Shown: piece after piece, positions 5,471 to 26,400 of the stretch
How positions within the stretch are numbered: the stretch's first letter is position 1
Layout: each line of letters begins with the position of its first letter
Source: Candidatus Saccharimonadota bacterium
Lineage (GTDB): Bacteria > Patescibacteriota > Gracilibacteria > Absconditabacterales > Absconditicoccaceae
Assembly: GCA_030429145.1 (NCBI GenBank)
Contig: JAUIDC010000001.1
Coordinates: 390,001-422,000 of the forward strand
Length of the DNA: 32,000 bases
Direction: 5' to 3'
The notes under the pieces: model-generated
The model's database searches: none
What the model saw: only the letters and a program-made list of their open reading frames with translations
What the model was told of the DNA's origin: nothing
Translations under genes and position numbers: made by a program

Positions 5471-7285
5471 ATGAAAAAAAGAAGTACGATAATATTTATT
5501 GCAATAATTGCTACTTTGTCGGGTATTGGTGTGATACAGTGACAGAGATGAGAAACAAAGAGTGAGGCTACTGAAAGACAAGTTTTCTTTATTCAAACAG
5601 ATCCTCTTACACAGAAGGAGTATCAGGGAACTATCACAAAAACGGCCTCTGTGAAATCGTCTAGTGATATTACGATTAATGCGCAGGTTGGGTGACGCGT
5701 AAACAATATTAGCGTTGCTTTGTGACAGAAAGTAGGAAATAAACAGCGTTTACTCTCTATGAGTGATATAGCTGGTTCATACTCATTTGGTGCGCAAAAG
5801 GCAGCTCTTTCTGTTCAGTCTGCACAAAACAATTTTGAGATAAACAGATTAAATCTAGATAAACAAATCCAAGATGCGCAGCTCGCCTATCAAAAAACAT
5901 TAGTCTCTTCACAGTCTAGCATCATCGGAGTGGGCAATTCTAGTGCTGATCTCCAGCTTCAAAAGCTAGAACAGGATTTGGCAAAAGCACGTTCTGATTA
6001 TAATGCGAAGCTTAAGAGTGATGATCAAACATTGGAAAATTACGTTAATACAGCAAAAAACGTCTACAGCGATGTGACAAATCTTATGTTAGATGTAATT
6101 GATAAATCAGATAAGTTCTTAGGATATACCAATGAAAATGCCCATTATAATAACGGATTTGAGGTCTATATTAGCGTGAAGGATGATAATGCAAGATATA
6201 TGGCAGAACAGGAGCTAGCAGAGCTTATCAACCTGAGAGAAGAACTTAAAAAGCTAGGAGACGAGATAACTTTAGACAATATAACAGAGTTTCTTTCTGA
6301 CTATAAGATGATCGTCGCGTGAATTAATGAGATGACTGTCGCAATGAAAAAAGTGCTTAACAATACTACACCAGGATGAACGCTTACTCCAGCATGACTT
6401 GATGCAGAGGTGGCAGCATTCACTACTTCGCAGACAAGAGCTAGTAGTATTTCCTCGTCTATTACCTCTCAAGTAAATGGGATAGATCTTTTCGTTACAA
6501 CATATGGAGACAATCAAAACTCTCTCGAACAACAGATAGCTTCATTGGAAACCCAGATAGCAGTTAGTAGAAGACAACTTGAAGACGCGAGTCAAAATGC
6601 TGAGATATCTCTAGAACAAAGTAGAAATAATCTCGACTTTCTAAAAAACACAAGAGATGAAAACCTTGCATCTCTTCGTAACTCTCTTGGTCAATCACAA
6701 GTTGCCTACCAAGAAGCACAGTTTAATCTGTGAAAGTTTTCCGTCAATGCTCCTATAGAAGGAGTTATCACAGAGGTTATGGTTGATGCGTGACAAGAGG
6801 TTTCTCCTGGAACGCCACTTATAAAGATGGTTTCTCAGTGAAAAGAAGTTGAGGTAAAAGTAACAGCTGATGAAAGACAGTATATTACTATAGGACAAGA
6901 GGTTCAGCTCTCTTATGAGAATACGATAGTTACTGGGCAAGTAAGTGAAATGTCGTCGGTGGCAGACAGTACGGCAAATTATACAGTAAAAATATCGATA
7001 GATGAAAAAACGCCTGTTGATATCGGAGCCTTTGTTGACGTAACTATTCCGCTCCAAGGGTGAAACAATATCATTCCTCTCAATGCGGTTACTATTGTTG
7101 ATAACAATAGAGGACAGATATTTATCTGGAATGGAGAAAACATAGAAACAAGAACCGTTACATTGGGTTCTGTCTATGGTAGTTCTATTGAGGTAGAAGA
7201 AAAATTTTCTGCCGGAGAAGAGCTTATAGTATCGGATGTTTCTCGCTATGATCCAGATAGCATGGACATCAAGAAAAGACAATAG
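5471..7285 (+). CDS. efflux RND periplasmic adaptor (HlyD/MFP family) with very long coiled-coil insert, 604 aa
   Basis: N-terminal TM segment (IIFIAIIATLSGIGVI), then a lipoyl-like half (ITINAQVGGRVNNISVALGQKVG). A long Q/L/A-rich coiled coil spans roughly nt 5760-6720. The second lipoyl half is APIEGVITEVMVDAGQEVSPGTPLIKMV, followed by beta-barrel/MP-type segments. Track ORFs 5759.. and 6410.. are in frame with ATG 5471. Eleven in-frame TGA. Confidence 0.8.
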
Positions 7286-7307
7286 TTTATTTATAGAGAT
7301 CTAGTGA

Positions 7308-10300
7308 ATGAGTGAAAAAATAAGATATTATAAAAAAAGATTGTTGAATACCTGGTTTTGACGATGGGTGAAAAATTATAGAGTTTCTTTCCTACTGATA
7401 TTCTTGTTGGTGGCGTATGGAACATTTTCACTTATTCGTATTCCGAAAGAATCAACGCCAGATATTCCTTTTGGTATTGTCCAAATAACTACAGCCTATC
7501 CGGGAGCAAATCCTGTAGATATAGACTCTCTTATCACACAAAAGATAGAGGACGAGATAAAAAACATGCCGGAAATTGACTCATTGGAGTCAAACTCTTC
7601 TCTGGGGATTTCAATCATTGCTATCACGCTCAATAGTACGGCAGACACGAAAGAGTTTATTGCGGATGTGAAAAATAAGGTAGATACTCTTGTTTTTCCC
7701 GAAGATGTGACGGATCCTAATGTGACAGAAATTTCGAGTGATAATGCGGTCCTGTTTCAGATGATGATCTACTGACCTCAAGAGAGATTTACTCTCAACC
7801 AGGTGAGATCTCTTGCTGTACAGTTGAAGAAAGAGATAAATGGAAAAGGAGATATTGTTGATGTATCTCTTTCGGGTGTTCCGTCGGATTCAGACTATGA
7901 CATAGCGGTTCTTCTTGATCAGCAAGCGCTAGAAAGCTATGGACTATCTGTTAGCCAGGTCGTTTGAGCTATCAGAAGTTACAATCAAAATCTTCCGCTG
8001 GGTAACCACGAACTGGGAGAGCTCTCTTATGACTATAGGATAGACAATGAAATTACCTCTATGGATGAGCTCAACAACATTCCTATTTCTATCAACAACG
8101 GACAAGATTACATAAAACTTTCTGAGATTACTACCATCAAAAGGGACTATAAAAATACTGCTGTCACGCGAGGCGGTGTACAAGGCTCAGCTCAAAACTA
8201 CGCAGTATCTATCACCATATTTAAAAAGAAAAGAACAAGTGTCTTCTCTGCGTCAAGTGAAGCAAAGGAGTTAATAGATAAAACATTGAAGAAACCTTTG
8301 TACGACGGACTGCAGGTAGAATATACGACCGATCTGTCAGAGATTATTATAGACGACTATAAGTCTCTTGGTATTAGTGCTCTGACATCGATATTACTCG
8401 TTCTTATGATAACGGCGCTCTTTATTGGGGTGAGGCAGTCGCTTATTGCGACTCTGGGGATGATTATTTCGTTTTTCATTACCTTTGTTGTGCTCGACCT
8501 TGCTGGTATGACGATGAACTTTTTGACCAACTTTAGTTTGATCTTAGCCTTTTGATCGGGTATCGATACTGTTATTGTGTTCATCGAGGCGGCTCGTGAG
8601 AACATGAAAAAATGATACAATCCAGCGAGTTCAATCCTCTTAGCAGTTAATACCTACAAGGCTCCAAACATAAACTCGTCGTTGACGAATCTAGTAGTAT
8701 TTATCCCTATGCTAGTGCTACCAGGTGTTACTGGAAAGTTTCTTTCGTACATTCCTATTACAATCTTTACGACGCTGCTGGCAAGCTTGTTTCTTTCTCT
8801 TACCGTAAACAATGCAATGTTTGCGAGATTCAATAAAAAATGGAACTACTACTACGAAGAGGATGAAAGCTCAGAGATGATCATGTCAGAAAATGATAGA
8901 GCACTACTTGAAGAGGAGAGAAAAGGAAAGCAGGTAAAACAAAGAACCACAGAACCTTGGTTTGAAAAATTTATCAACAAGTATGTGATAGTTCCGTATA
9001 TTCACCTTTTGAAAAAAACGCTGAGTCGTAAGCGCTGGAGAAAGTTGGCGGTGCGAGCTCCGGTTGGACTTCTTTTTCTCACATTTATTGTTCTTTCTCC
9101 ATCGATAGGATTTAAGCTTTTCCCATCGGGAGATAATCCATTTCTGAACTATGCGATAGAAGGGAAACAGGGTCAGACGACAGACTCGATGGCTGTAGCT
9201 GTATCAGGTGTGGATGCAATCATAGCAGACATCCCAGAGATAAAAACATATGAGATAAATATTAATAAGGATACGGCGAATCTTGGTTTGGTGTTGGTTG
9301 ATAAAGAAGACAGGAAAAGAGACAGCTTTGAAGTAGAAGAAGAAATATCACAGAGGCTCCACTATCTCAGAGAGATTGGATATAAGGTTGAAGGAAAAGT
9401 AGAAGCGGGTGGACCACCAGTTGGAAAGGCAATAGGAGTAAAACTTATAGCAGAAGATACCTCTCAGCTTCAGGAGTTAAAGAATGTGAGTAAGGACTTT
9501 GAAGCGTTCATAGAATCTATCACAGGTTCAGTAAATGTGACAAATTCGAGCTCTGAAAATCCTGGACAGTTCTCAGTAGCCTTTGACAAGCAAAAACTTG
9601 CACAGCTTGGACTAACTCCTCAAGACGTGCAAAGCGAACTCTATGCTGCCATCAATGGTCAGAAAGCAGGAAATATAAATCTTGAGAATACAGAAAGAGA
9701 TATCGTCGTAAAAGTAAAAACATTTGATGATGCCTTCTCTCCTGATCAACTAAGATCTCATACTATCCAAACAAGAAAGGGACCAGTAAGCGTGGCAGAA
9801 GTAGGAGAGATCTCTCTTGATCCAGCGTTGGCTTCCATCCAAAGATCAGAATGAGATCTTGCTATCACAACCGAAGCAGATCTAGAGCCGGGGTTGTCGC
9901 CAACCAGTTATCAGGCAGAACTCATAGAGTTTGCTCAACAGTACGACTTCCCGGCTGGCATCTCGTATAAAGCATGAGGAGAAAACGAAGCAAACAAGGA
10001 GCTCATACAGGCGACTATCATGGCATTTTTTGTGGCTATTTTCCTCGCGTTTATTATCTTGGTGTATCAGTTTAACTCATACAGCAAACCAGCTATTATC
10101 CTGTATAGTATCGTGACGGCACTCTTGGGTGTGAATGTGTGATTGTATGTGACAGGAAATCCGTATAGCATGGCCTTTGGTATTGGGTTTATTTCATTGA
10201 TAGGAGTGGTGGTAAATACGGCAATCTTCCTTGTAGATAGAATCAATGAGAACTTGAAGCATGGTGCGACGATAGAGAAGGCGATCATAGAAGCTGGAAC

Positions 10301-10562
10301 GGTGAGGGTGAAGCCTATTGTGATTAGTACGCTAACGACAATCCTTGGTATCGGCTCTGTTGTTACACAGGATGAGTTCTACGCGGGACTTGGTTGGACG
10401 GTCATTTTTGGTCTGCTATTTTCGACGGCGATTACGCTATTGGCGGTTCCAAATCTTTTCTATGCTGCATTTAAGAGAGGAGAAGAACGTAGAAAGAAAA
10501 AACAGTGACAGGAAAATGGTACGGCAGAATTAGATGATCAGATGGTTGCTACTGCGGAGTAA
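7308..10562 (+). CDS. RND-superfamily efflux transporter permease (AcrB/HAE-type), 1084 aa
   Basis: Five track fragments (7368.., 8061.., 8682.., 10143..) are all in frame with ATG 7308 and joined by 9 in-frame TGA. The 12-TM RND architecture is present with two large loops. TM4-like and TM10-like segments are FSLILAFGSGIDTVIVFIEAAREN and SLIGVVVNTAIFLVDRINE. With UGA as sense the ORF runs past TGA 10506 to TAA 10560-10562. Confidence 0.9.
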
Positions 10563-10576
10563 TAATACCAATGAAA

Positions 10577-10609
10577 AAAGGTCCTCATGGCGAGGGCCTT
10601 TATTTTTTT
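10577..10609. terminator. bidirectional terminator between convergent RND pump and photolyase genes
   Basis: AAAGGTCCTC-atggc-GAGGGCCTTT (one G.U pair) followed by TATTTTTTT on the plus strand and preceded by an A-run. It overlaps the photolyase stop codon (10600-10602). Confidence 0.65.
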
Positions 10610-11925
10610 GCATAGATCTCTTTTGCTTTTTTGCTTCGTTCGTAGTGATCAACAATCGGCTTGGCATATTTGAGATCGTGTTCTAGTGGATTATGAATTT
10701 CCTTGGGAGAGAAATCTTTGAGCTCAGGTAGTCGTTTTTTTATGTATATACAATCGGGATCGAACCTTTCTGATTGGCGGATAGGCGAGAAGATCCTGAG
10801 AGGCTTTGGGTCGGCGCCGACGCTTGCAGTTCGTTGTCGATTGCCAATATTTACGTTTTCATCGTAATCGAGTAGGTAATTGGCAAAGTGTTTCTCCCCT
10901 CGACGTCGGTCGATAAGCAGGTCTTTAGTAAGAAATGAAGCAACGATCATACGAACACGGTTGTGCATCCAATTTTCTTCCTTCAGCTGTCTCATCCCTG
11001 CGTCAACGATCGGATATCCGGTTTTGCCATCTTGTCGTGCCTTAAAATATTTTTCGTTATTATCCCAAGCCAGTTTCCTGCGCTTTTCGAGGAACTCAAC
11101 GAGGCGTGTTTCTGGAAAATGAAACATGATATGATGTCGAAATTCACGTCGAGCTAATTCAGAGATAAATGTCTGTGCATTTTCCTTGAGAGCTTTTTGG
11201 TAGACGTCTCTGATACTTATCAGTCCAAACCTAATATACGGAGAGAGCTTTGACGATCAGTCTATGGCAGGAAAGTTTCTTGTTTCATCGTATCAAGAGA
11301 AATCGAAATGTTGTAGTCTTTCTTGGGGGAAGGAGAGAGACCAGTGGATGTTCTCCTGGTATGAAAGTTTTGAAAATATCCCTTTTTTGTTTGGAAGAGA
11401 AATTTTTGGTGACTCTATTTTTTGAGGAGCACGGTGAACCTTTGTATATTCTTCGGTGAGGAATTTCTTCCGACGATTGAAAAAAGGAGTGAACACTTTC
11501 ATGGGCTTCACTTTGTCTATGGGAATGAGGAGAAAGTCATGAGAGGCATGACAAGCGATCTTCTTTTTGTCGCAATAGTCTTCTATCTTTTTATCTCTCT
11601 TGATTGATCATGATCCGTAGCTTTGGTTGTAAAAGATCGCGTTAATGTTGTGCTCTTTGATGAGCTTGGGAATGATTTTAGCTGGGTCTCCATATTGGAT
11701 AAGAAGATATGATCACTTTTCTTGAAGCTCTTTTTCGAGGTTGTTGATTGCCTCGATAAGAAATCAGACTCTTTTGTCTTCTTTGGGGAAGTTTTTAAGA
11801 ATGGTTTCGTCGAAAATGAAAATAGGGATAATCTCTTTGGATTGTTTAAGGGCCTCAAGCAATCATTTATTGTCGTGAAGCCTGAGATCTTGGCGGAAGA
11901 TGAAAAGTGAGCGAGGATAAATCAT
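10600..11925 (-). CDS. phr: deoxyribodipyrimidine photolyase (class I CPD photolyase/cryptochrome family), 441 aa
   Basis: 1326 nt with 6 in-frame TGA. N-terminal motif is SLFIFRQDLRLHDN. The FAD domain carries DGSSKLSPYIRFGLIS, TGYPIVDAGMRQL, NWMHNRVRMIVASFL, DPKPLRIFSP and LPEL. All standard-code Arg residues at conserved Trp sites are CGA/CGG codons (see findings). Confidence 0.88.
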
Positions 11926-11927
11926 GC

Positions 11928-13031
11928 TTATTTTTGTTTAACAAAATGAGGCAAAACATATGTCTTTTGTCATTTTCATTGCCGGTTGTTTTCTACGAAT
12001 GGCTTCATGAAGAGACTTGGAACGAGATAGGTTGTCTTATGCTTTTGTAAAGCCTTTCTGATGAGACGAAGTGAAAATAGTTTGCACCTGATGAGTGTTT
12101 TTTTCAAAAATCATTGATCCTTGTTTCGCTGGGTGGCGTCTAAACTGCCGGGAATTTTTGCTGTGTCATCTAACAGCGATGGATATGGAAAGAAATATCC
12201 CATGTCATGAAACATCATCAAGAGAGGTGTCGTTTGTGGTATGACAGATAAGGGAAGCCGACCTAGGTTTCTACTCACGCTGTGAGCCCAAATGATATCG
12301 GGCTGAAACTGTCAGATCTTTTTCTTAAGTCTCAGTGCGGCAACGAGATTGAACGCTGTTTTGAAGAGTCACCAAAATGAGTTTTCCCCCTTGCCTCACC
12401 AGACATCAACTGTGTAACCATTTTGTTCTAGAAGCTCTTTTACTTCTCGGATATATGTCTCTATGCCGCCGATTTTTTTGATGAAATCCGATATGATAAG
12501 AATGCGCTTGCCACTTCCGATGATAGAGCGTAACGATTCTAGCCGTTTCTCAGGAGAGTATTGTTCAAGCTCCAGCGAGGTAAGATCATACTCCTTTTTA
12601 TCGTGGAGAACTTCCTGTAAGAGGGCAAATAGCTTTTCTGCATCATTGTCTCAAGCCTGGCTACTAATGTTTAACTCATCTAAAACGAAAGATGCTAGCC
12701 CTCACTTTTTAAATCCAATAACCGGCACTCACTGCCTGAGCGACTCTAATGCGCTCTTTCCAAATGTTTCTATGACGCGAGAGGGCATCAAGCAGTAGTC
12801 CATGGTTGTCAATGCTTGCTGAATAGTTTCTTGTGATGCCCAGCCGTGCAGCCTGACATTTGTGCCAAATTTATCTGTGAGCGTCTCGCACTCTTTTTCA
12901 AGAGCCCCTGTTCCATAGATGTCTATATGCCAATCTATTTCTCACGTTTCATAGAGCTTTGTGAAAACGTCGATAATTAGATCGACTCATTTCTCTTTTT
13001 CTAATCTTCCAAAGTAGATAAATTTTGTCAT
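11928..13031 (-). CDS. GT-B (GT4-like) glycosyltransferase with swapped domain order, 367 aa
   Basis: Single open frame of 1104 nt with 11 in-frame TGA and no TAA/TAG. It has a GGAG Shine-Dalgarno 7 nt upstream of the ATG. Residues 1-165 look like the C-terminal Glycos_transf_1 domain (FIYFGRLEKEKG..., LMPSRVIETFGKSALESLRQGVPVIG). Residues ~170-367 look like the N-terminal GT4 domain (KRILIISDFIKKIGGIETYI..., PDIIWAHS, MMFHDMGY, YLVPS...YVLPHFV). Confidence 0.75.
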
Positions 13032-13032
13032 C

Positions 13033-13707
13033 CTATCTCCACATTCAAATAACAAACTCACCCTTTATCACAAGTTCTTTCTTTTCAATCTTCTCTTTCA
13101 ACTCACTCGCTGTTCCCATAACTTTCTCCTCAAACATCTTGCTCAATTCGCGCGCTATAAATACTTTTCATTCATATCCGAGCTCTTCGAGCTCACTCAG
13201 TAGTTTTTCTACTCTATGCACTGACTCATAGAAGAAACAAGGCGTTTCAGTAGATGTTTCAATGAGTTTCTTCAATGTTGTTTGCCTACCTTTTTTTGTC
13301 GGGATAAATCCGAGATATGAAAATGTACTGGTATCGGTATATGCAGAGACTATAGCTGGAATGAGCGCGTTTGCTCATGGTAAAACTTCAAATGAGAGAT
13401 TCTCTTCTCGAGCTATTTTAATGAGATTTTTCCCTGGATCAGAAAGTCATGGAGTGCCTGCTTCGCTAAGAACTACGGCGTCTTCCTCTTTGATGAGGTT
13501 GATATAGTGTGATAGCTTTCACTGATCAGTGAAGCTGGTAAGTGGGAAAAACTGTTTTCCCGTCAAAGATATCTCGTACATATTCATAAGCTTCTTTGCT
13601 GTTGCTGTATCTTCGCAGAAAAAAAGAGAAACCTCTTTGAGTAGTCTCAGTGCACGAAGCGTAATGTCTTCTCTGTTCCCGATAGGGGTGGGGGCGAAAT
13701 AAAGCAT
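13033..13707 (-). CDS. rsmI: 16S rRNA (cytidine1402-2'-O)-methyltransferase RsmI, 224 aa
   Basis: MLYFAPTPIGNREDITLRALRLLKEV..FCEDT, then SEAGTP-G(UGA 13447-13449)-LSDPG and VLP-G(UGA)-ANALIPA. I translated all 675 nt codon by codon and found no TAA/TAG before TAG 13033-13035. Confidence 0.85.
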
Positions 13708-13724
13708 GAACTATTGTTAATCGC

Positions 13725-13958
13725 TTACTTATAAATGTTTCATCTGTAGTCTATATTTATTATTTTGATTGTATTATCATGTGTCGAAAATACAATCCTG
13801 ATTTTTCAGACTCTCACTCTATATGTGCCTTTTTCTTCTTTCATCTTTTGCATATCTAATTTTTCAGTTTGCCCTCATGCAATCAAACTGAGTATTTCGA
13901 GTAGTTTGACTTGTTCTTTCAAGGATAGGCTTAAAAGGAACTTTTGTATCTTATCCAT
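13725..13958 (-). CDS. RelE/ParE-family type II toxin, 77 aa
   Basis: MDKIQKFLLSLSLKEQVKLLEILSLIAGGQ...KGTYRVRV-G-KIRIVFSTHDNTIKIINIDYR-G-NIYK matches the yRiRiGdyRiiy...i..i..RgeiY signature. It has three in-frame TGA (all Gly) and overlaps the antitoxin stop by 8 nt. Confidence 0.7.
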
Positions 13959-17466: not shown

Positions 17467-17543
17467 TGGAGGCACCAGTGGGATTCGAACCCACGATCGA
17501 AGGCTTTGCAGGCCCCGCCGTTAGACCACTCCGGCATAGTGCC
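17467..17543 (-). tRNA. tRNA-Cys (anticodon GCA), 77 nt with encoded CCA
   Basis: The reverse complement folds as a cloverleaf. Acceptor stem GGCACTA/TGGTGCC, anticodon stem GGGGC/GCCTT, loop CTGCAAA (GCA), T-arm GTGGG-TTCGAAT-CCCAC, discriminator U73 and a 13:22 mismatch. The last two are both typical of tRNA-Cys. Confidence 0.9.
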
Positions 17544-17643: not shown

Positions 17644-19095
17644 TTATTGCTTGATAATTTTTCTATTTACTGTGCTTCCATCTGCAAGCTTAAGCTTAAG
17701 AATATAAGCGCCACTAGCGAGACGATAGAGCGTCATATGCTGTTCTGTTGTCCCATTGCCAGGTATCTGGCGGACGGGATAGCCCGTCATATCTATGATA
17801 GCTCCTGCTACGATAGGGCTGGGAGTCTGAACGGTAAACACATCGCTTGTTGGATTTGGGTATACTATGGTTTCGTTTGTACCGGCAGAAGGGCGATAGA
17901 TTGCTTCGACCTCTGTGGTTGGAACTGAAACATTGAGTATCCAAACCTTTGCCTTGTTGTTTCCAGAACCAAACATGGTATAGTGACTGTTTTGATAGAA
18001 GCCATTGATTCGTTCTATCCCAGGGCCGTCATTGATGACGACAGAGTCGTCCAAGCCAGGAGCTGTGTTTACAAGCCACACTACGAGAGGCCCTGTGTTC
18101 TCAATCGCAGACCAAAGGAAGTAGTTATCCCTTACAGAGGTTGCTTGAAATCGGTCGGGGCTGTTTGCTGCGAAGTATACATCATCAATCATGTTTACGG
18201 GGCCGGAGAGATTGTCTCCATGTGTAATAGCAATATTGCCATATGCCGTAACGGAGCGATTGATGTATATGGGAGCCGCATTGCTTGTTCCGGAGGTAAA
18301 ACTGTAGGGAGCGTAGAAGCCAACGAGCACAGGAGATGTTCTGTCAACTATCTGCCTGATGCTTTTGCCGTTGGACTTATCTGTAGCCATGATAGTAATG
18401 GTAGTGTCCTGTTTCACGTAATCTGTTACGACAGCTCCAGCTGTGTTTATCACGAAGTAGCGATCACGATAACTTAGCGAAGCATCGTGCTTGCGCTTTT
18501 CTATGTAAACTCCCGCTGGGTCGGTATAAAGCAGATAGTGTGCAGTGTCGTCACTGACAATGCCTGCGTAACAGTTACAGGAAGGATCCTTGGGCGAACC
18601 AAAACCAACATCGTTGGTCGTTATAAATCCTATCTTGTGGGTGTTCACAGACGTACCCTGGTTGTAGTGTTTTGCTAACACTGACATTCCCCAGTCGGCC
18701 TTGCCGACCTTTAGCCCTACATAAATGTCATTGGTCACATTTGACTCTCCGGCTTTTATCACCGTCAGACTTGAGCCAGTCTTTTTTAGGCTTTGCAGCT
18801 TCAGCTGGTGGTCTGTCATGATGGCAATAGTTACATCGGCTCCTTTGCTGTTTATAGCGGCGCCAATGATGTTCTCAGTGAATGTCTCACTGTAGAGCGG
18901 TGTGCCATGACAATTTTGGTCGACATAGGCAATTTTTAGTTCTTTTCCACTTGCCATAAGGACATAACCATCTTTTGACATGTCCAGAACGCTCTGTCCA
19001 GAGCTGTCCGTATAGGTGCAGTGTTGTTTGATGCTTTGTGCAAAGACAGAGCTGCAGCAGAGCAAAGTTCCTGTTAGTAAAAGTAAACGTTTCAT
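17644..19095 (-). CDS. secreted protein with N-terminal signal peptide and C-terminal T9SS type-A sorting domain (Por_Secre_tail), 483 aa
   Basis: Signal peptide MKRLLLLTGTLLCCSSVFAQ. The C-terminal ~75 aa (IVYPNPTSDVFTVQ...IIDMTGYPVRQ...LYRLASGAYILKLKLADGSTVNRKIIKQ) match the vYPNP..d...v...i.d..G......l..l..G.Y.l.....g....Kl.k consensus. About 50% GC in three hand-counted lines, and intact in the standard code. Confidence 0.85.
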   Translation of the reverse strand: MKRLLLLTGTLLCCSSVFAQSIKQHCTYTDSSGQSVLDMSKDGYVLMASGKELKIAYVDQNCHGTPLYSETFTENIIGAAINSKGADVTIAIMTDHQLKLQSLKKTGSSLTVIKAGESNVTNDIYVGLKVGKADWGMSVLAKHYNQGTSVNTHKIGFITTNDVGFGSPKDPSCNCYAGIVSDDTAHYLLYTDPAGVYIEKRKHDASLSYRDRYFVINTAGAVVTDYVKQDTTITIMATDKSNGKSIRQIVDRTSPVLVGFYAPYSFTSGTSNAAPIYINRSVTAYGNIAITHGDNLSGPVNMIDDVYFAANSPDRFQATSVRDNYFLWSAIENTGPLVVWLVNTAPGLDDSVVINDGPGIERINGFYQNSHYTMFGSGNNKAKVWILNVSVPTTEVEAIYRPSAGTNETIVYPNPTSDVFTVQTPSPIVAGAIIDMTGYPVRQIPGNGTTEQHMTLYRLASGAYILKLKLADGSTVNRKIIKQ

Positions 19096-19172: not shown

Positions 19173-19847
19173 CTATTGTGAAGATCTTCTCACAATGACA
19201 ATCGGAGTCATTTCATCATTCTGACCCATTGGATTGTCTAGGAGGACGAGGCGAACTGTTGCTTTGTCGACAGGCATAGACTTTGACATGCCCAAGACTT
19301 CGACATTGATGTTGTTGCCGTCGATAATGGCTGCGGGAACTCAAAATCTGTCTTCTATGTCCTGACAGAACTTGTCAGCATTCGCTGGTCAAATCATGGC
19401 AAACTCGTCAAACGGAGCCATGGCATCTGGGTTGAAGCCGTCTATTTCTGAAATTCTATTGCCAGCTATGCGGTAAAAATCTCCACGTCTGCCAAGTAGT
19501 CTTGTTATTCCTCCGAGGATCATAGCAAAGAAAACTCTCCGTCGCCCTGCTTGCATGATAGCGACCTGCATCTTGCGGGGGTGAGAGTAGCCAATATCTC
19601 ACTTATGTTTCGTAACACCTTTTACTACTAGTTTTGCAAGCCATCCTGGTTGGATAACAGATTCGTGGACGACTCTTCCTTGTGAAATAGTGACAACCTT
19701 TTCTGAAATTGCAATTCGGTCACCTGGTTGCAGGAGCGGGTTCACATACTTTTCGATAAGTGGATCAAACGATTCTTTGATGTGAATCATATGAGTCTTT
19801 ACGCAAATTCTTTCGTAATTTGCTCCGTTAACCTCTTTGAGAGACAT
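19173..19847 (-). CDS. gamma-glutamyl ligase (CofE / F420-0:glutamate ligase-like, PF01996-type) family protein, 224 aa
   Basis: Track ORFs 19599..19847 and 19389..19571 plus a third segment are in one frame, joined by TGA at 19599, 19389 and 19341. The motif PLLQPGDRIAISEKVVTISQGRVV is typical of the family. Ends at TAG 19173-19175. Confidence 0.6.
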
Positions 19848-19874
19848 TATTTTCTTGCTACTACGGATAAAATC

Positions 19875-20894
19875 TTATTTTACTTTTCGCTGTTTCTTAT
19901 CTTCTTTCCATTTATATAACTTATACATTATTTTATTGCCAATAATATCATAACTTCCGGTGAGCTCATATTTTACCCCTCACATTGACTCTTTAAAATG
20001 ACTGACAGTAGCCAACTCGTGCTTTGGATAGCCGGTCGGCGCCCCTCCCATCATATCAAAGATTTCATATCATTTTTCTTTTGCTCGCTTCATTACTTCT
20101 CGTTTCAGAAAGTTATTCCCTCAAATATTTCCTGCTTTTCTATCTGTCGCACCATAAAGATAGATAACTGCTTTTTCTTCTTCATCAAAGAGGTAGATGC
20201 TTCCACTGACGACGTCCCCATTGGGTGCTTTTACCAGCATAAGTTTCCCTGTTTTGTTCGAGAGAAGAGAGTGTTTTAAGTCGTCAAATGTTGACTTTGG
20301 TAGTACAAAAAATGCCTTTTTTGCTGCAGTGCCGCGTCGAATCTTATAGAACTCATCCCATTCTTCTGGGGTTGCTTCACAGAAAGAGAGATGATGTCTT
20401 TTTGCTTTTTTGATAGCCTGTCTACAGTTTGATGTGACATCTTTCCAGAGTTCGTCTTCTGTTTTTTTAAGGTCTATCATGATAGTGCTGTTTGGGAGAT
20501 TTTCTTTGAAGCCAACCTCTAGATCGAAGAGCTCTTTCATCTCTTCTTGGGTGATGCGGCGCTTCATCCTGATGGCCTTTAATACACTCTCATTCTTATT
20601 AATTTTGCAAGGAAATCCGTCGAATGGATCGATGATCCCGAGTTGGAAGAGTATCGTGTGTTTGTCGTTAAGATATGTTTTTTTAATATTTTCTATGTCT
20701 TTTTTGAACTGCGCGTGTTGATCTCTGATTTCTATACCAAGAACCTGATATCGTTTGAACTTCCAAGGCCCGACCTTTTTGTCTCTTATCACGCCAAAAT
20801 GTGTTTTGCCAAGTATTTCTATCTCAAAAGTGGGCTTTCTGTAGACGTTTTTTGTCAGGTCGTATCGGAGTGCTGACTGGTAAAAATTATACAT
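19875..20894 (-). CDS. FemAB-family peptidoglycan interpeptide-bridge peptidyltransferase-like protein, 339 aa
   Basis: N-terminus FYQSAL[CGA]YD (family: flQS..W). The C-terminal half, GATDRKAGNI-G-GNNFLK[CGA]EVMK[CGA]AKEK-G-YEIFDMMGG...HFKESM-G-GV, matches lqWe.i.wAk..G...yDf.G...FK..fGg. 1020 nt, ends TAA 19875-19877. Confidence 0.8.
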
Positions 20895-21838: not shown

Positions 21839-22029
21839 AAATGCCTATTATACATCAAATTAAATGATATGTCATCGGTTTTTGGCTTTCAAAAGCCAAG
21901 GAATCTCTCTATAAAATTTGCATAGTAGAAGGATACATATTTGACCTTGAAAATCAAAGCCGAAATCCTATACTTCCAAACTGTCGCTTGAAAAAAGTGG
22001 CATGTACATTCAACCCCAGATACCCGAGT

Positions 22030-22119
22030 GGAGAGATGGCAGAGTGGTTGAATGCGACTGTCTTGAAAACAGTTGTCCCTTTACGGGGACCGTGGGTTCG
22101 AATCCCTCTCTCTCCGCCA
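22030..22119 (+). tRNA. tRNA-Ser (anticodon UGA), 90 nt with long variable arm and encoded CCA
   Basis: Acceptor stem GGAGAGA/TCTCTCC, anticodon stem ACTGT/ACAGT with loop CTTGAAA, long variable arm GTCCC-tttac-GGGAC, T-loop TTCGAAT, discriminator G. There is one U.U mismatch in the T-stem. Confidence 0.85.
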
Positions 22120-22139
22120 TTTACTATCTTACATTTTTC

Positions 22140-23294
22140 ATGCCCATATATCCCTCCAAGAAGGTAAAGAGAGCAAGAAAAACAACAAACAACATTGGAA
22201 AATTCATCATTACATTATTCAACTTAGTGGTCTTTAATTATCTCATCATCTACGCAGACAAGTTCCAACTTGCTGTGGAAAACGAGCCTGTAAAGGCGGC
22301 GTTTACTGATGTGATGCCTACTGCAAGTGCAGATATTAATGCACAGTCTATTATCTTTGATAATGACGATCTTGATGGTAATCTTACCTATATCGTTAGA
22401 TCAGGAGATACGCTGGAAACTATTGCAGCAGAACTGAACACGACAGTGGATAATATTAAGAAAGTAAATAAACTGAAGAGTAATGAGATTCGTCCTGGGC
22501 AGAGATTGACGGTAAGTCAGCTTCCAGGTATCATTATTACTATGCAGGAAGACATTTCATTGGGTGACTTCATTGAGACGTATAATCTAAATGAAGATGA
22601 CATCAAAACGCTCAACAATATAGCTGACAGCAGAAAGATCGTTCGTCAGGGATGAGAGCTCTTCATTCCTATCAGCGAAAAAGAAGCACAGGATAAAGGA
22701 TTGATTGAAAAGCCTGAACCTGTTGTGAAGCCAAATCCTGTTGTAGCAACGACTAAAACAGCTACGGTAGATACTAGTGCTCAATCTGCTCCGGCAAAGA
22801 GTACTCCTGCTGTTGCAGAGCCAAAAGAAACGATATCTTCTCCAGCTCCGGTAAAAAAGCCGGTAGCGACAGTGAGTCAGGTCGTAGATGAAACAACGAC
22901 TATTACGGCTAAGAGAGGAACGGTTCTTGCGAAGTGGTATCAGAAGACCACTACTATCGATGGATTTGCTGCAGGTTATTGTACAGCATATGCAGCTTCA
23001 AGAAGACCAGACATCTTCAAGAGTGATAAGGCGTTCCGCGGTAATGCAAAAGAGTGGAACGAGAGAGCTATCGCCGCTGGATGGACGGTAGGGTCAATTC
23101 CTAAACCAGGTTCAATCGCTGTTTATGAGCCAGGTCAGGGTGGAGCTTCAGGATATGGTCACGTTGCTATCGTAGAGTCAGTAGATCCTGAAAATGGACT
23201 TATGACTATCTCGGATATGAATGGTCCTGGAGGTAGAAATGTAGTTACCACTCGTATCGTACCATATGACGAGGCAGGAAGCTATATCTACTAA
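22140..23294 (+). CDS. cell-wall hydrolase with N-terminal TM anchor, two LysM domains, Pro/Ala/Thr/Val-rich linker and C-terminal CHAP amidase/peptidase domain, 384 aa
   Basis: Start trimmed to ATG 22140, after the tRNA. LysM 1 is YIVRSGDTLETIAAELNTTVDNIKKVNKL..IRPGQRLTV. LysM 2 runs across TGA 22653. The CHAP domain has catalytic Cys in GYCTAYAA and His in GYGHVAIVESV. Track ORFs 22002.. and 22701.. are in the same frame. Confidence 0.8.
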
Positions 23295-23355: not shown

Positions 23356-23439
23356 ATGACACGTTTTATCTCTCTTCTCGTTTACTATAGTATGCGTATG
23401 AGGTGAAGAAGATCTTCAAGTAAAGTAAGGATAAAGAAA

Positions 23440-26400
23440 ATGCACTTCCACAATGATATTTTTGGGGGAAGAAAAACTATTGCTAAAAAAATAAAGAAGT
23501 GGCTTAGGCAGGGAGTTGTCTGGAAGACTATTGTTTTCTGACTTCTTTTTGCGTTTCTTATTGGCGCCCTTCGATTTTACGTGGCAGTAGTAAGTGCTAT
23601 GCCTAACTTGAGTAATATCAATCAGACCTTTAAACAAGCAACACTTATCACCGATAGAGATGGAGACACTCTCTACAAGTTGTTTGATGAAAATAGAGAG
23701 TACGTGTCATATGATAGTATCTCTCCTCATATGGTAAACGCTATGATAGCGGCTGAAGATAAGGATTTTTGGACGAATGAGTGAGTAGACTATGGAGGTA
23801 TCCTGAGAGCAATTTGGATTACTTTGAAGACAGGAAGTTTGAGTGGGCCTGGAGGTTCGACCATTACCCAACAGCTCATCAAGCTTTTGCTCTTGTCGAA
23901 CGAGAAAACTATCACGAGAAAAGCAAAGGAGATTATCCTAGCAACGAGAATTGATGACTATCTTCAGGATGAGATCAAGAAGGAGATGCCTGAGCTTTCT
24001 TCGTCTGAGCGTAAGAAAGAAGTAAAGAAGCGTATCGTAGAGATGTACCTTAACTATATTTTCCTTGGTAACAACTCTCACGGTGTGGAGGCAGCTTCAA
24101 AGACATACTTTGGAAAGTCTGCTAAAGAGCTGGATATCCTTGAGTCTGCTATCCTTGCTTCGATGGCACAGCGTCCTTCGACAGTAAACCCATATAGAAA
24201 TGTTGACCAGCTTATGGGTGCATTTACCGTTGTGTCAGACGACGACGAGGCTGTTGATATGACAACTGGTTCTATAAAAGAAAAGGTTGTCGAGAGGATG
24301 GTAAGTAATATCAATGACTCTTCGAGATCGGTAAGTAAGTCTGCCGGTGGATTTATGAGTTATGTTGAAAGAATAGGAGAGTTTAGTATCGAGGTAGAAG
24401 GCGTAGAATATGATGTGGAGTACTCGCCAGGAAGAAAAGATTATGTATTATCTAGAATGTATGAAGATGGGTATATAGATGCACAGCAGGCAAAAGATGC
24501 ATTTATACAGGCCTTAAACTACCAGTTTAAGACGGCTAGGATAGATATCAATGCACCACATTTCGTTTTCTGGATCGTAGAGTGGCTTAAAGAACAATGA
24601 TATACTGAGGAACAACTGACGAAAGGAGGATTGACTATTAAGACGACTCTTGATCTGGATGCACAAGAAATAGCCGAAAAAAGTATTACTGACAATATCG
24701 CTACTATCAATGGTTATGGAGCGAACAATAGTTCTCTTATCTACCTTGATAGTCTCAATGGCGACGTTATTGCCTACGTAGGATCAGCAGATTATAACAA
24801 TGAAGAGATAGCAGGAAAAGTAGACATGGTGTTGCAGTCGAGACAACCAGGGTCGACTATCAAGCCTTTGGTCTATGCGTATGGGTTTATGAAGCTGCCG
24901 TTGGCAATTGATACTCCAATCTATGACATTCCGTTTAAGATAGGAAACGATCAACCGAATAATAATGACGCGGCTTATGAGGGGCTCTTACCTTTGAGGA
25001 AAGCTCTTGGATATTCGAGAAATATCCCTGCGATCAAAATGTATTTTGCTGTGGGTGGACAGGATGAGATTATTCCTTACATGAATAGCATTGGTATCAA
25101 TTCGTTCGATACGAAGAAAGATTATGGTTATCCGCTCGCTATCGGTGCTGGGGAGCTCAGTATGCTCGAGTTGGCAAATGCTTATATGCATTTAAGTTCG
25201 GTCAATGGAGCGCCTGCTAAGATCAATCCGATCCTGGAAGTAACAGGGCCAGATGGAAATATTCTCTATCAAAAATCAGAAGAAGAGGAAAAACTACAAC
25301 AAAAAATCATCCCTGGCGGTGTTGCTTACCTCTTGTGGAAGATACTTACTACCGAAGACAACCTCCCTCCTTCATGGGTTGCAAACTTTAGAGTTGGCGG
25401 GCTTGTTTATGCAAATAAGTCTGGTACAACAGACATGAAAGATCCGAAGAGTGATAGAAAACTGCCGAGAGATGGTTGGCTTGTAGGATATACTCCTTCG
25501 AAAGTTGCTGTCTTTTGGGCGGGAAACACACAGTGAGGACCTATGAATGCGAACGCTTATGGAGGTTGGGTAAACGGAAGAACCTTTAGACAGTTCTTCT
25601 CTCAACTCTTGAGAGCAGACCTTATTCAGTCGGAAAACGTTTCTCCTATAGAGGTGAAAGATGTGGCTATATCAAAAGTCTCATGAAGGTTGGCTACGGA
25701 GAGCACTCCCGAAGAGTTTAGAGTAAGTTCGCTTGCGTATATCAATACTGTGCCTACGGTGGCAGATAATACGATGAGTCCTATCCAGATTGACAATGCT
25801 TGTATGGGTAAGGTGTCAGATGTCACTCCGAGAGAGGATATAATCAATGGGTATGTCCTTAATCCGGTGAGTTTTATGCCGAACAATATGGATCTAGACG
25901 ATATCCGTAACTGGTGGACAGAAAGAGCAAATCCACAGACCACAGGCGAAGTAAAACAGCCTCAGTACAATGGTATCTTTCTGCAGGCTCCAACAGAGGT
26001 CTGTGAGGCGAGAGAGTCTTTAGGAGTCCAAGATAATAGTATCCAGATCACTCTGAGACAGCCAAGAAATCAGGGGAAAATTATGCAGACATTTAGTGTC
26101 TGGTATGACATTAGTGCTCCAGTTACTATCAGCAAGGTAAGGGTGATGCTCGATAATGAGTTCCTTGGTGAGTTCGCATATGCCTCTCCAACGAGTAGAA
26201 TAAATGATATTAGAAAAGTAGATGCTCATCTACCAGTCGATGGGAAGACGCATACACTTACCGTTATAGCAATAGATTCTGCAGGTAGATATAACAAGCA
26301 GTCTGTGGAGGTGCAGTGAGCAGGAAGCGATACTGTTGCGCCTTATCTTCTTACGGATAGCTTTACTGTAAGAAAGAGAGCTGACGGAAACTACGATGTT

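What the first reader, a model, noticed from the sequence alone, without database searches (positions are those of the whole stretch)
11928..13031. Circularly permuted GT-B glycosyltransferase: the C-terminal Rossmann domain is encoded before the N-terminal one in a single ORF
The ORF begins exactly where a GT4/GT1 C-terminal domain normally begins (M-TKFIYFGRLEKEKGVDLII...). It runs through the nucleotide-sugar-binding core (LMPSRVIETFGKSALESLRQGVPVIGFKKGG) and its closing helices. It then continues in the same frame into a typical GT4 N-terminal domain start (GKRILIISDFIKKIGGIETYI..ELLEQNGYTV, PDIIWAHS, LLMMFHDMGY). It ends at ...TTYLVPSLFMKPFVENN.QGKGQKTYVLPHFVKQK, which is the vd.iivpS......g....ki.vipNgv linker that normally leads into the fiyvGRL..eKG motif. 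The protein end therefore abuts, in sequence logic, its own beginning. I verified the reverse complement line by line: 1104 nt, 11 UGA-Gly, and no TAA/TAG. The flanks are tidy. The rsmI stop and a GGAG Shine-Dalgarno sit just upstream, and the photolyase ATG is 2 nt after the stop. No other GT half is adjacent. I am not aware of a described permuted GT-B enzyme of this type. A tandem duplication followed by end-trimming is the classic route to such a permutation.
Basis: partly seen in the sequence, partly recalled or inferred. Interest (0 to 1): 0.7.

Follow-up and report, generated by a model that had tools for sequence, protein, structure and literature searches.

The report
Circularly permuted GT4 glycosyltransferase family
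This gene encodes a sugar-transferring enzyme whose two halves are joined in the reverse of the usual order; the arrangement is real, is conserved across a whole group of tiny UGA-recoded bacteria, and shows that this very common enzyme fold tolerates having its hinge cut.

Summary
Under genetic code 25 (UGA=Gly), window 11928-13031 (-) is one 367-aa ORF. Pfam places Glycos_transf_1, normally the C-terminal domain, at residues 3-148. It places Glyco_transf_4, normally the N-terminal domain, at residues 187-287.

A family profile hits canonical GT4 enzymes as two stretches in swapped order. The same profile rotated at residue 172 aligns end to end in one stretch with higher scores. The new termini lie in what is normally the inter-domain linker.

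It is not an assembly artefact:
- More than 110 cluster representatives share the architecture.
- 36 of 42 species-level Gracilibacteria/Absconditabacteria loci carry one intact permuted ORF; one more is intact but was missed by my ORF caller.
- One oral-SR1 cluster has 250 members on independent contigs.

AlphaFold2 models are confident (pTM 0.85 and 0.84). The donor-binding residues R9, K14 and E88 are invariant. Two close canonical-order relatives exist in the same recoded lineage.

The function is probably synthesis of an envelope glycan, inferred from Wzy_C, TagA/WecG, FtsW and MurG neighbours in other genomes.

I found no paper on a permuted GT4. Reverse-order Alg13-Alg14 fusions in amoebae are a published precedent in another GT-B family. 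Verdict: a new variant of a known kind, of moderate interest.

The parts
11928..13031 (-). Whole ORF: 367 aa plus TAA stop, with 11 UGA=Gly codons. It encodes the circularly permuted GT4 glycosyltransferase.
   Evidence: It is the same gene as public protein P0001, which is translated with UGA=Trp.
12588..13025 (-). C-type (nucleotide-sugar-binding) Rossmann domain, residues 3-148. Here it sits at the N-terminus.
   Evidence: Pfam Glycos_transf_1 1e-21 and Glyco_trans_1_4 3.3e-20. It aligns to the GlgA, WaaB and PimB' C-domains. The AF2 model shows alternating strands and helices with pLDDT about 90.
12987..13010 (-). GRLEKEKG motif, residues 8-15. R9 and K14 are invariant in the family. In canonical GT4 enzymes this motif follows the inter-domain linker; here it lies 7 residues from the N-terminus.
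   Evidence: Invariant columns; alignment to GlgA 'GRFDRGQKG'.
12744..12770 (-). E-x7-E motif, E88-TFGKSAL-E96, within LMPSRVIETFGKSALESL. E88 is invariant; E96 is common but not invariant.
   Evidence: That this is the motif characteristic of GT4/GT5 donor sites is established knowledge.
12507..12569 (-). Former C-terminal crossover helix (YSPEKRLESLRSII) plus a 4-5 residue connector (GSGK), residues about 155-175. This joins the old C-terminus to the old N-terminus.
   Evidence: In the AF2 model, helices 165-168 and 170-181 (P0001 numbering) are followed by a 4-residue loop and then strand 186-191, with pLDDT 95-96. The de-permutation cut before G172 restores collinearity with canonical enzymes.
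11931..12506 (-). N-type (acceptor-side) Rossmann domain, residues 176-367. Here it sits at the C-terminus. It includes the Gly loop KIGGIE, PDIIWAHS, HDMGYF, LVPS and a basic helix.
   Evidence: Pfam Glyco_transf_4 at residues 187-287. In about 11 homologues the match runs to profile positions 160-167 of 170, at the very C-terminus. The native profile's positions 177-374 match residues 2-219 of canonical GT4 enzymes.
11943..11954 (-). LPHF motif, residues 360-363, with H362 invariant. It occupies the position of the canonical 'vIpNGvD' strand that leads into the inter-domain linker. The protein ends 4 residues later.
   Evidence: In the canonical-order relatives the same motif is followed by a linker of about 20 aa and then FGRxExEKG.
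13033..13707 (-). Upstream co-directional gene, RsmI-like (TP_methylase). Its stop lies 1 nt before the GT start codon.
   Evidence: The adjacency is conserved in 5 loci, and the gene lies two genes upstream in 4 more.
10600..11925 (-). Downstream co-directional gene, a DNA photolyase. Its start is 2 nt after the GT stop.
   Evidence: DNA_photolyase plus FAD_binding_7. This neighbour is shared only with L001.
13759..13787 (-). Promoter-like site (TCGACA-17-AATAAT) upstream of rsmI. It is a possible start of an rsmI-GT-phr transcription unit.
   Evidence: This is a consensus match only, and the number of such sites in the region is not above the shuffled expectation.
10577..10601 (.). GC-rich hairpin with T-runs on both strands, lying between the convergent photolyase gene and the 1084-aa membrane-protein gene. 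It looks like a bidirectional terminator.
   Evidence: 10-bp stem with 5 GC pairs.

Best explanation
The ORF encodes a functional GT4-type, GT-B-fold glycosyltransferase that is a natural circular permutant.

Chain layout:
- The chain starts a few residues before the GRLxxEKG motif of the nucleotide-sugar-binding (C-type) Rossmann domain.
- It runs through that domain, including the E-x7-E donor-site motif.
- It continues through the helix that in canonical enzymes is the C-terminal crossover helix.
- A 4-5 residue connector then leads straight into strand 1 of the acceptor-side (N-type) Rossmann domain.
- It ends 4 residues after the LPHF strand. In canonical enzymes this strand leads into the inter-domain linker.

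The canonical hinge linker is therefore cut and forms the new termini, and the old termini are joined. This leaves one covalent crossing between the domains instead of two.

The arrangement is fixed in a protein family spread across the UGA=Gly recoded Patescibacteria (Gracilibacteria/Absconditabacteria). Close canonical-order relatives exist in the same lineage.

Inferred, not shown: catalysis happens in the cleft between the two domains of one chain, as in ordinary GT4 enzymes. A sugar passes from a nucleotide-sugar held by the C-type domain to an acceptor held by the basic N-type domain. The acceptor is most likely a membrane-associated, lipid-linked precursor of a cell-envelope glycan.
For: Shown:
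- Pfam domain order is inverted in the window protein. All 18 homologues scanned start with Glycos_transf_1, and 16 have Glyco_transf_4 after it. Most of those N-type hits fall below Pfam's gathering cut-off. Controls P0024 and P0045 have the normal order.
- The native family HMM hits 60 canonical GT4 enzymes as two swapped stretches (HMM 177-374 to residues 2-219; HMM 4-171 to residues 232-396). The HMM rotated at residue 172 gives one stretch (HMM 5-372 to residues 2-398) with higher scores, for example 121.6 rising to 135.3 bits for P0023.
- PDB alignments of the rotated sequence and profile run through the artificial junction: PimB' at query 140-338, BshA at profile 162-378, WaaB at profile 164-319.
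- The canonical-order relatives P0222 and P0229 align collinearly with the rotated family. Their linker of about 20 aa bridges exactly where the permuted termini abut.
- Independent recurrence: 333 representatives at E<=1e-30, of which more than 110 of the 150 listed are full-length and collinear at 354-450 aa. There are 42 genome loci. My code-25 ORF calling found one intact permuted ORF in 36 of them, and L025 is also intact but was dropped by the ORF filter. One cluster has 250 members on contigs up to 446 kb.
- AF2: pLDDT 86.7 and pTM 0.85 for the window protein (UGA=Trp version), and pLDDT 82.9 and pTM 0.84 for P0015. Both show two alpha/beta Rossmann-like halves joined by a confidently modelled short connector.
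- R9, K14, E88, the Gly loop (G17/G18 in rotated numbering), H/D motifs and H362 are invariant.

Supporting the inferred function:
- A Wzy_C gene lies immediately upstream in 10 loci.
- A WecG/TagA gene lies immediately downstream in 6 loci.
- FtsW/RodA, MurG and a sugar nucleotidyltransferase lie nearby in others.
- The N-type domain has net charge +18 and the C-type domain -10, and a basic helix is conserved.
Against: - No coordinates were available, so the model could not be superposed on a canonical GT-B structure in a permutation-aware way. The cleft geometry rests on the high pTM and on homology.
- Foldseek is order-dependent. Its well-fitting alignments cover only one domain (154-190 columns, TMq 0.30-0.38); the few longer ones have rmsd 15-18 A.
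- The window's own neighbours, rsmI and photolyase, say nothing about function. The envelope-glycan context comes from other genomes and covers only about a third of the loci.
- The hydrophobic moment of the basic helix is unremarkable in most members, with a mean of 0.33.
- Neither the donor sugar nor the acceptor can be named.
- No activity data exist.
Confidence: 0.85

Rival explanations
1. Assembly or annotation artefact. On this reading a tandem pair of canonical GT4 genes was collapsed or mis-joined so that a C-half appears fused to an N-half, or the single ORF appears only because UGA was read through.
For: The window is a single unverified sequence, and read support could not be examined. 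Database translations of this family are often wrong: UGA is read as Trp, or proteins are truncated at UGA, as in P0017 and P0018.
Against: - The same architecture and the same termini recur at 27-50% identity in 36 of 42 species-level genomes as called, plus L025. It also recurs in more than 110 clusters at 50% identity and in 250 near-identical members on independent contigs up to 446 kb.
- No UGA and no stop codon lies at the domain junction.
- UGA codons fall on Gly positions that are universally conserved.
Confidence: 0.01
2. The architecture is the same but the origin differs. Instead of duplication and trimming of one gene, the reversed order arose in one of two ways. Either a GT4 gene split into two half-genes that re-fused in inverted order, as proposed for the Alg13-Alg14 fusions of Amoebozoa. 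Or the C-half of one GT4 gene fused to the N-half of a neighbouring GT4 gene after a deletion.
For: - PMC8993221 documents split and re-fusion with gene-order inversion in another GT-B family.
- L039 carries a stand-alone, apparently intact C-type half that stops exactly at the junction.
- No tandem-duplicated intermediate (a protein above 450 aa) appears among the 150 best representatives.
- The N-domain of the canonical relatives is much closer to the family (154-164 bits, against 25-54 for the other canonical GT4s listed) than their C-domain is (86-87 bits, against 50-77). This could reflect mosaic ancestry.
Against: - Only one split example was found, and its partner half was not located.
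- The other two apparent splits, L035 and L038, are artefacts: a homopolymer frameshift and a run of Ns.
- Both halves of the canonical relatives still group with the permuted family to the exclusion of other GT4 enzymes. That fits one ancestral gene.
- The data cannot separate these routes from duplication and deletion.
Confidence: 0.35
3. The active site forms between subunits. With the hinge linker cut, the C-type domain of one chain pairs with the N-type domain of another, in a head-to-tail or domain-swapped oligomer, instead of folding into an intramolecular cleft.
For: - Only one covalent crossing remains between the domains. This is an inference from the topology seen.
- From my own knowledge, not tested here: GT-B enzymes can form intertwined, domain-swapped dimers. 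LpxB is an example.
Against: - AF2 monomer models place both domains in one confident rigid unit (pTM 0.85 and 0.84).
- The connector is only 4-5 residues long and is modelled with pLDDT 95-96. This pins the crossover helix onto the same chain's N-type domain, as in canonical enzymes.
Confidence: 0.08
4. The protein is a catalytically dead remnant. On this reading the permutation destroyed activity and the protein persists as a sugar-nucleotide-binding or scaffolding protein.
For: - No activity data exist.
- E96, the second Glu of E-x7-E, is not invariant.
- The canonical NG of the 'NGvD' strand is replaced by HF.
Against: - The key donor-site residues (R9, K14, E88) and the N-domain Gly loop and His/Asp motifs are invariant across sequences only 27-50% identical. 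This indicates purifying selection on the catalytic apparatus.
- Both domains are retained at full length in more than 110 clusters.
Confidence: 0.05

Closest known systems
Canonical GT4 glycosyltransferases (CAZy GT4, GT-B fold; for example PimA/PimB', BshA, MshA, WaaB/WaaG, sucrose-phosphate synthase) and the related GT5 glycogen synthase GlgA
   Same: - Both Pfam domains are present (Glyco_transf_4 and Glycos_transf_1).
- The GRLxxEKG and E-x7-E donor-site motifs, the Gly-rich loop of the N-type domain and the crossover helix are all present.
- The family is collinear with canonical GT4 enzymes over its full length once the sequence is rotated.
- It presumably uses the same retaining mechanism in an inter-domain cleft.
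   Different: - The order of the domains in the chain is reversed.
- The termini lie in the hinge linker, and the old termini are joined by 4-5 residues.
- The 'NG' of the last N-domain strand is replaced by an invariant His (LPHF).
- No NCBIfam equivalog reaches its cut-off. The best is 46.9 bits against a cut-off of 385, and it covers the C-type domain only.
- No solved structure gives a good full-length collinear match.
P0222 and P0229: canonical-order GT4 proteins from very low-GC, UGA-recoded contigs (L043, L044)
   Same: - They carry the family-specific motifs (VSDF..IGGIETYI, PDxIWxHS, HDLGYF, LVPSxFM, VLPHF, LVPSLFxETFGLSALE).
- They use the same genetic code (14 and 22 in-frame UGA codons).
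- They cluster with the permuted family to the exclusion of other GT4 enzymes.
   Different: - Their domain order is the normal N-then-C, with an intact linker of about 20 aa.
- Each is known from only one short contig.
- Whether they are sister to the permuted clade or nested inside it is unresolved.
Alg13-Alg14 fusion proteins with reverse domain order in Entamoeba histolytica and Dictyostelium discoideum (UDP-GlcNAc transferase of N-glycan synthesis; MurG-like GT-B)
   Same: It is a single-chain GT-B enzyme in which the nucleotide-sugar-binding C-type half precedes the acceptor-side or membrane-side N-type half. This is the only published precedent found for a reversed GT-B domain order (PMC8993221).
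   Different: - It belongs to a different family (Glyco_tran_28_C plus Alg14, inverting) and to eukaryotes.
- It is explained by a gene split followed by re-fusion.
- The window protein has GT4-type domains, not GT28/Alg14 domains, so it is an analogue and not a member.

Membership tests
GT4 / GT-B glycosyltransferase | C-type Rossmann domain (Pfam Glycos_transf_1) carrying the GRLxxxKG and E-x7-E donor-site motifs | tested here: met
   77.7 bits against a gathering cut-off of 26.4. R9, K14 and E88 are invariant in the family. It aligns to the GlgA, WaaB and PimB' C-domains.
GT4 / GT-B glycosyltransferase | N-type Rossmann domain (Pfam Glyco_transf_4) with a Gly-rich loop | tested here: met
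   30.4 bits against a gathering cut-off of 28.5 in the window protein. In homologues the match reaches up to 49 bits, though most fall below the cut-off. The family HMM matches canonical N-domains at 25-54 bits.
GT4 / GT-B glycosyltransferase | Domain order N-type then C-type, with the C-terminal helix crossing back to the N-type domain | tested here: not met
   The order is C-type then N-type in the window protein and in 16 of the 18 homologues scanned; the other two gave no N-type hit. The crossover helix is retained but is now internal. This is the feature that makes the protein a permuted variant and not an ordinary member.
GT4 / GT-B glycosyltransferase | Two Rossmann-like domains facing each other across a catalytic cleft (the GT-B fold in three dimensions) | tested here: inconclusive
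   AF2 gives two alpha/beta domains in one confident unit (pTM 0.85 and 0.84). Foldseek is order-dependent, and its well-fitting alignments cover only one domain.
GT4 / GT-B glycosyltransferase | Retaining transfer of a sugar from a nucleotide-sugar donor | not testable with these tools
   This needs biochemistry.
Alg13-Alg14 reverse-order fusion (MurG-like GT-B) | Glyco_tran_28_C (Alg13) and Alg14 domains | tested here: not met
   The Pfam scan at E<=10 lists only GT4-type domains, with no Glyco_tran_28_C or Alg14. The resemblance is in topology only.
GT4-conflict (PF20706, GT4 of conflict systems) | Full-length match to the 385-position model, and a conflict-system gene neighbourhood | tested here: not met
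   Only profile positions 199-359 match. That stretch is the C-type domain, where the stronger Glycos_transf_1 hit also lies. The neighbours are housekeeping and envelope genes.

The most novel reading that the evidence does not exclude
The GT-B domain order has flipped more than once within this lineage. If the canonical-order proteins P0222 and P0229 are truly nested inside the permuted clade, as 47 of 60 bootstrap trees of the full alignment place them, then a permuted enzyme reverted to the canonical order. An in-frame tandem duplicate is the likely intermediate.

That would make this the first natural system in which both directions of a circular permutation of a large two-domain enzyme can be traced. 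In addition, the severed hinge may change how the enzyme opens and closes, or may allow active sites to form between subunits.
Probability: 0.15. Interest if true: 0.75.

Novelty: new variant of a known kind. Interest (0 to 1): 0.55.

Why it matters
- **Fold tolerance.** GT-B is one of the two major glycosyltransferase folds, and its hinge linker is thought to govern the open/closed motion needed for catalysis. A whole bacterial class that keeps an enzyme with this linker cut, and the old termini fused, is a natural experiment. It shows that one covalent crossing is enough. It also gives protein engineers a ready template for permuted or split GT-B designs.
- **Annotation.** Public databases label the family only as 'glycosyl transferases group 1'. 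They often translate it with the wrong code (UGA as Trp) or truncate it at UGA. Domain-order-aware annotation and CAZy-type classification therefore miss it.
- **Lineage marker.** The permutation is a discrete, easily scored character. It may serve as a marker for the UGA=Gly recoded Patescibacteria.
- **Envelope biology.** The Wzy_C / TagA-WecG / FtsW / MurG neighbourhoods point to an uncharacterised envelope glycopolymer in these epibiotic or predatory bacteria.

Tried and rejected
- **Structure input.** I used P0001, the same gene with 11 Gly-to-Trp changes and 10 extra residues, and the homologue P0015, which shows no obvious Trp-for-Gly substitutions.
- **Fold comparison.** Foldseek against the PDB cannot see permutations. 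It returned only single-domain alignments of good fit. Coordinates are not exposed, so permutation-aware superposition was impossible.
- **Locus look-ups.** The first genome scan, with the 19-sequence alignment, found no stretch conserved enough to search with; a trimmed alignment worked. The encoding-contig look-up of P0001 found nothing.
- **De-permuted profile against the PDB.** It gave alignments that cross the junction. They do not span the whole length, because the N-type domain is too divergent from solved GT4 enzymes.
- **Phylogeny.** A neighbour-joining tree (Kimura distances, Trp masked) could not resolve whether P0222 and P0229 are sister to the permuted clade or nested in it. Distances are saturated, and these very low-GC sequences may attract each other.
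- **Membrane-binding helix.** The idea that the basic helix is a strongly amphipathic membrane anchor was not upheld. Net charge is conserved (+4.7 on average) but the hydrophobic moment is ordinary.
- **Apparent split genes.** L035 and L038 were rejected as artefacts: an A9 homopolymer frameshift and a run of Ns.
- **Literature.** Six full-text searches found no paper on a permuted GT4 or bacterial GT-B. They found only the Alg13-14 precedent.
- **Conflict-system reading.** The GT4-conflict Pfam hit was rejected because it is partial and is overlapped by Glycos_transf_1.
Full report
**1. The observation**

The window has 40% GC. It makes sense only under genetic code 25 (UGA=Gly). The reverse complement of 11928-13031 is 1104 nt with 11 in-frame TGA codons and no TAA/TAG before the final TAA.

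Several UGA codons fall on glycines that are conserved in all GT4 enzymes: G15 of GRLxxEKG, G101 of GVPVIG and G110 of KKGG. The code assignment is therefore internally supported.

The flanks are as described:
- The RsmI-like gene (13033-13707) ends with TAG at 13035-13033.
- GGAG lies at 13040-13037 and the ATG at 13031.
- The photolyase ATG (11925) lies 2 nt after the TAA stop.
- An in-frame stop lies 11 codons upstream of the ATG, so there is no room for a hidden upstream domain.

Pfam places Glycos_transf_1 at residues 3-148 (E 1e-21). It places Glyco_transf_4 at residues 187-287 (E 4.6e-7, 30.4 bits, above the gathering cut-off of 28.5). NCBIfam models hit only the first half and stay far below their cut-offs. 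The inverted order is real.

**2. It is a true circular permutation**

I built an HMM from the family alignment and ran it against 60 canonical GT4 proteins returned by the same search. Every one of the best canonical proteins was hit as two stretches in swapped order:
- profile 177-374 matched protein residues 2-219;
- profile 4-171 matched protein residues 232-396.

I then rotated the alignment at the column before G172 (GSGKRILII) and repeated the search. Each of those canonical proteins was now hit as one stretch covering essentially its whole length (profile 5-372 to residues 2-398). Scores rose, for example from 121.6 to 135.3 bits for P0023.

The rotated single sequence and the rotated profile also align to solved GT4/GT5 structures straight through the artificial junction. 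Examples are PimB' at query 140-338 against chain 144-344, BshA at profile 162-378, and WaaB at profile 164-319.

The break lies in the canonical inter-domain linker, between the 'vIpNGvD'-type strand (here LPHF) and the GRLxxEKG strand. The old C-terminal crossover helix (YSPEKRLESLRSII) is joined to strand 1 of the N-type domain by GSGK.

**3. It is not an artefact, and it is a family**

- The word-indexed search returned about 22 proteins covering most or all of the query (79-100%) at 29-49% identity, from NCBI, JGI, ENA and Logan. After these, coverage drops to roughly 30-47% for canonical GT4 enzymes of about 410 aa.
- All 18 homologues scanned start with Glycos_transf_1. Sixteen also show Glyco_transf_4 after it, and in about 11 of these the match runs to the C-terminal end. 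Most of these N-type hits are below Pfam's gathering cut-off. P0020 and P0021 gave no N-type hit at E<=0.1. The canonical controls show the normal order.
- An exhaustive HMMER search of 1.84 billion representatives found 333 at E<=1e-30. More than 110 of the 150 listed are single-stretch, full-length, collinear matches of 354-450 aa. The rest are fragments.
- A scan of one genome per species found 42 loci. They are labelled Gracilibacteria, Absconditabacterales, SR1 (including human oral taxon HOT-345) or 'Peribacteria'.
- All 42 loci use in-frame UGA.
- My code-25 ORF calling found one intact permuted ORF in 36 loci. L025 is also intact but was dropped by my overlap filter.
- Of the remaining five, two are cut by contig ends. 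Two are broken by an A9 homopolymer frameshift or a run of Ns. One (L039) is a genuine stand-alone C-type half.
- The oral-SR1 cluster alone has 250 members on independent contigs up to 446 kb.

Collapse of a tandem repeat cannot explain this.

**4. Structure**

AlphaFold2 on the window protein (public translation P0001, with UGA read as Trp) and a 19-sequence alignment gave mean pLDDT 86.7 and pTM 0.85. A replicate on P0015 gave 82.9 and 0.84.

Both models show an alpha/beta Rossmann-like half, two short helices and a longer helix, a 4-residue loop modelled at pLDDT 95-96, and then a second alpha/beta half. A pTM of 0.85 for a two-domain chain implies that the relative placement of the domains is predicted with confidence.

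Foldseek against the PDB found many GT-B enzymes: GlgA, sucrose-phosphate synthase, TarM, SenB and BGluT. The alignments of good fit cover only 154-190 columns at TMq 0.30-0.38. A few longer alignments (335-360 columns) have rmsd 15-18 A and no better TM-score. This is what an order-dependent aligner must do with a permutant. It also shows that no solved structure gives a good collinear full-length match.

I could not obtain coordinates, so the cleft geometry was not verified directly. This is the main gap.

**5. Catalytic apparatus**

Using correctly translated sequences, the following are invariant:
- R9, E13, K14 and G15 of the GRLxxEKG motif;
- L81, P83, S84, E88, T89, F90 and G91 of LMPSRxxETFG, where E88 is the first Glu of E-x7-E;
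- in the N-type domain, D182, G188, G189 and E191 (the SDF..GGIE loop), H250, S251 and R254, H275, D276 and G278, and K317.

H362 of the terminal LPHF is invariant in the permuted family. P0229 has Asn at that position.

Such conservation at 27-50% overall identity argues for an active enzyme. By homology, the C-type domain binds the nucleotide-sugar and the N-type domain binds the acceptor. This is established knowledge for GT4, and here it is an inference.

**6. Function**

The window's own operon-like trio (rsmI-GT-photolyase) is uninformative. A promoter-like site lies at 13787-13759 and a terminator-like hairpin at 10577-10601.

Across the 42 loci, the neighbours of the gene are:

| Neighbour | Position relative to the GT gene | Loci |
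|---|---|---|
| Wzy_C (O-antigen-ligase-like membrane protein) | immediately upstream, co-directional | 10 |
| WecG/TagA glycosyltransferase | immediately downstream | 6 |
| Unannotated membrane protein, ~1086 aa | following the WecG/TagA gene | 6 |
| FtsW/RodA | three or four genes upstream | 8 |
| ComF-like phosphoribosyltransferase | immediately downstream | 5 |
| MurG | two or three genes downstream | 4 |
| Sugar nucleotidyltransferase | two or three genes upstream | 4 |

The RsmI-like gene is immediately upstream in 5 loci and two genes upstream in 4.

The N-type domain is strongly basic (K+R 32, D+E 14) and the C-type domain is acidic (K+R 19, D+E 29). A basic helix is conserved, although its hydrophobic moment is ordinary. 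Cultured Absconditabacteria are described as having a Gram-positive-type wall and several glycosyltransferases (PMC8080830).

I therefore propose a peripheral-membrane GT4 that extends a lipid-linked precursor of a wall-associated glycopolymer. My confidence in this is about 0.4. Neither the donor nor the acceptor can be named.

**7. Origin**

Two proteins, P0222 (409 aa) and P0229 (412 aa), come from contigs of 23-26% GC with 14 and 22 in-frame UGA codons. They have the canonical N-then-C order but carry the family's own motifs.
- Their N-domains score 154-164 bits against the family profile, against 25-54 bits for the other canonical GT4s listed.
- In the rotated alignment, their linker (VLPHFVFDSDISN..KFQDKVNLISFGR) bridges exactly the point where the permuted termini abut.
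- In neighbour-joining trees they group with the permuted family and no other canonical GT4 intervenes. Sister or nested placement is unresolved: nested in 47 of 60 replicates for the full alignment, sister in 41 of 60 for the N-domain, and evenly split for the C-domain.
- They are stand-alone genes with no permuted copy beside them.

No tandem-duplicated intermediate was seen. One stand-alone C-type half exists (L039). Duplication and trimming, fission and re-fusion, and fusion of neighbouring genes therefore all remain open.

**8. Comparison with what is known**

The protein works like a GT4 enzyme and has both GT4 domains, but it fails the family's canonical domain order. I file it as a permuted variant of GT4.

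Six full-text searches found no description of a permuted GT4 or bacterial GT-B enzyme. There is a published topological precedent. Alg13-Alg14 fusions 'with the reverse domain order' occur in Entamoeba and Dictyostelium, and are attributed to a gene split and re-fusion with inversion of gene order (PMC8993221). That family has Glyco_tran_28_C and Alg14 domains, which are absent here.

The only name any source gives to members of this family is 'Glycosyl transferases group 1'.

**9. Verdict**

Two caveats apply: a precedent exists in another GT-B family, and the evolutionary route is undetermined.

Novelty: a new variant of a known kind.

Interest is moderate (0.55). It is a clean, lineage-wide natural circular permutation of a major enzyme fold that severs the hinge, and close non-permuted relatives are available for comparison. 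It does not reveal a new kind of system, and its biochemical function is still inferred.

Noticed in passing
L039:7998-8540: A stand-alone C-type half of this family, 180 aa. It keeps the R/K of the GRL-type motif and LMPSRFLETFGLSALD. It ends with TAA exactly after the crossover helix, where the N-type domain would begin, and the next gene is convergent. It may be a naturally split form whose partner half is encoded elsewhere.
   Followed up: partly
L043:1664-2893 and L044:2491-3729: Canonical-order (N then C) close relatives of the permuted family, P0222 and P0229. They lie on short contigs of 23-26% GC with 14 and 22 in-frame UGA codons. Their position relative to the permuted clade is unresolved.
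   Followed up: partly
L035:3330-3350 and L038:~1310-1500: Apparent splits of the gene between its two halves are artefacts. L035 has a frameshift in an A9 homopolymer run right at the junction. L038 has a run of Ns.
   Followed up: yes
window 11928-13061 (public protein P0001); also P0017 and P0018: Public translations of this family are systematically wrong. P0001 reads the 11 UGA codons as Trp and starts at a GTG 10 codons upstream, overlapping rsmI. P0017 and P0018 (225 aa) are family members cut off at a UGA.
   Followed up: yes
window 22030-22119 (+): A tRNA-Ser(tga) gene lies inside the mechanically called 5' end of the LysM-CHAP ORF (22002-23294), so that protein's real start must be downstream. 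A tRNA-Cys(gca) gene is at 17467-17543 (-).
   Followed up: partly
window 17644-19095 (-): A 483-aa protein with a hydrophobic, signal-peptide-like N-terminus and a Por_Secre_tail domain (a type IX secretion-style C-terminal sorting domain; E 8.6e-10). This is unexpected in a UGA-recoded Patescibacterium.
   Followed up: no
window 5471-10562 (+): A HlyD-family adaptor-like gene (604 aa) is followed by a 1084-aa multi-pass membrane protein. This is an efflux-pump-like pair. The large protein was not scanned against Pfam.
   Followed up: no
L016, L020, L023, L024, L027, L030 (downstream of the GT and TagA genes): A conserved polytopic membrane protein of about 1086 aa, with no Pfam match, follows the Wzy_C - permuted GT - WecG/TagA genes in six loci. 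It is a candidate further component of the same envelope-glycan pathway.
   Followed up: partly
window 19173-20894 (-): A gene for an F420-0:gamma-glutamyl-ligase-like protein lies next to a gene for a FemAB-family peptidyltransferase-like protein. A LysM-CHAP hydrolase gene and a class A PBP-like gene (23356-26598, not scanned) lie nearby. Together they form a cluster of wall-related genes about 6-13 kb from the GT gene.
   Followed up: no
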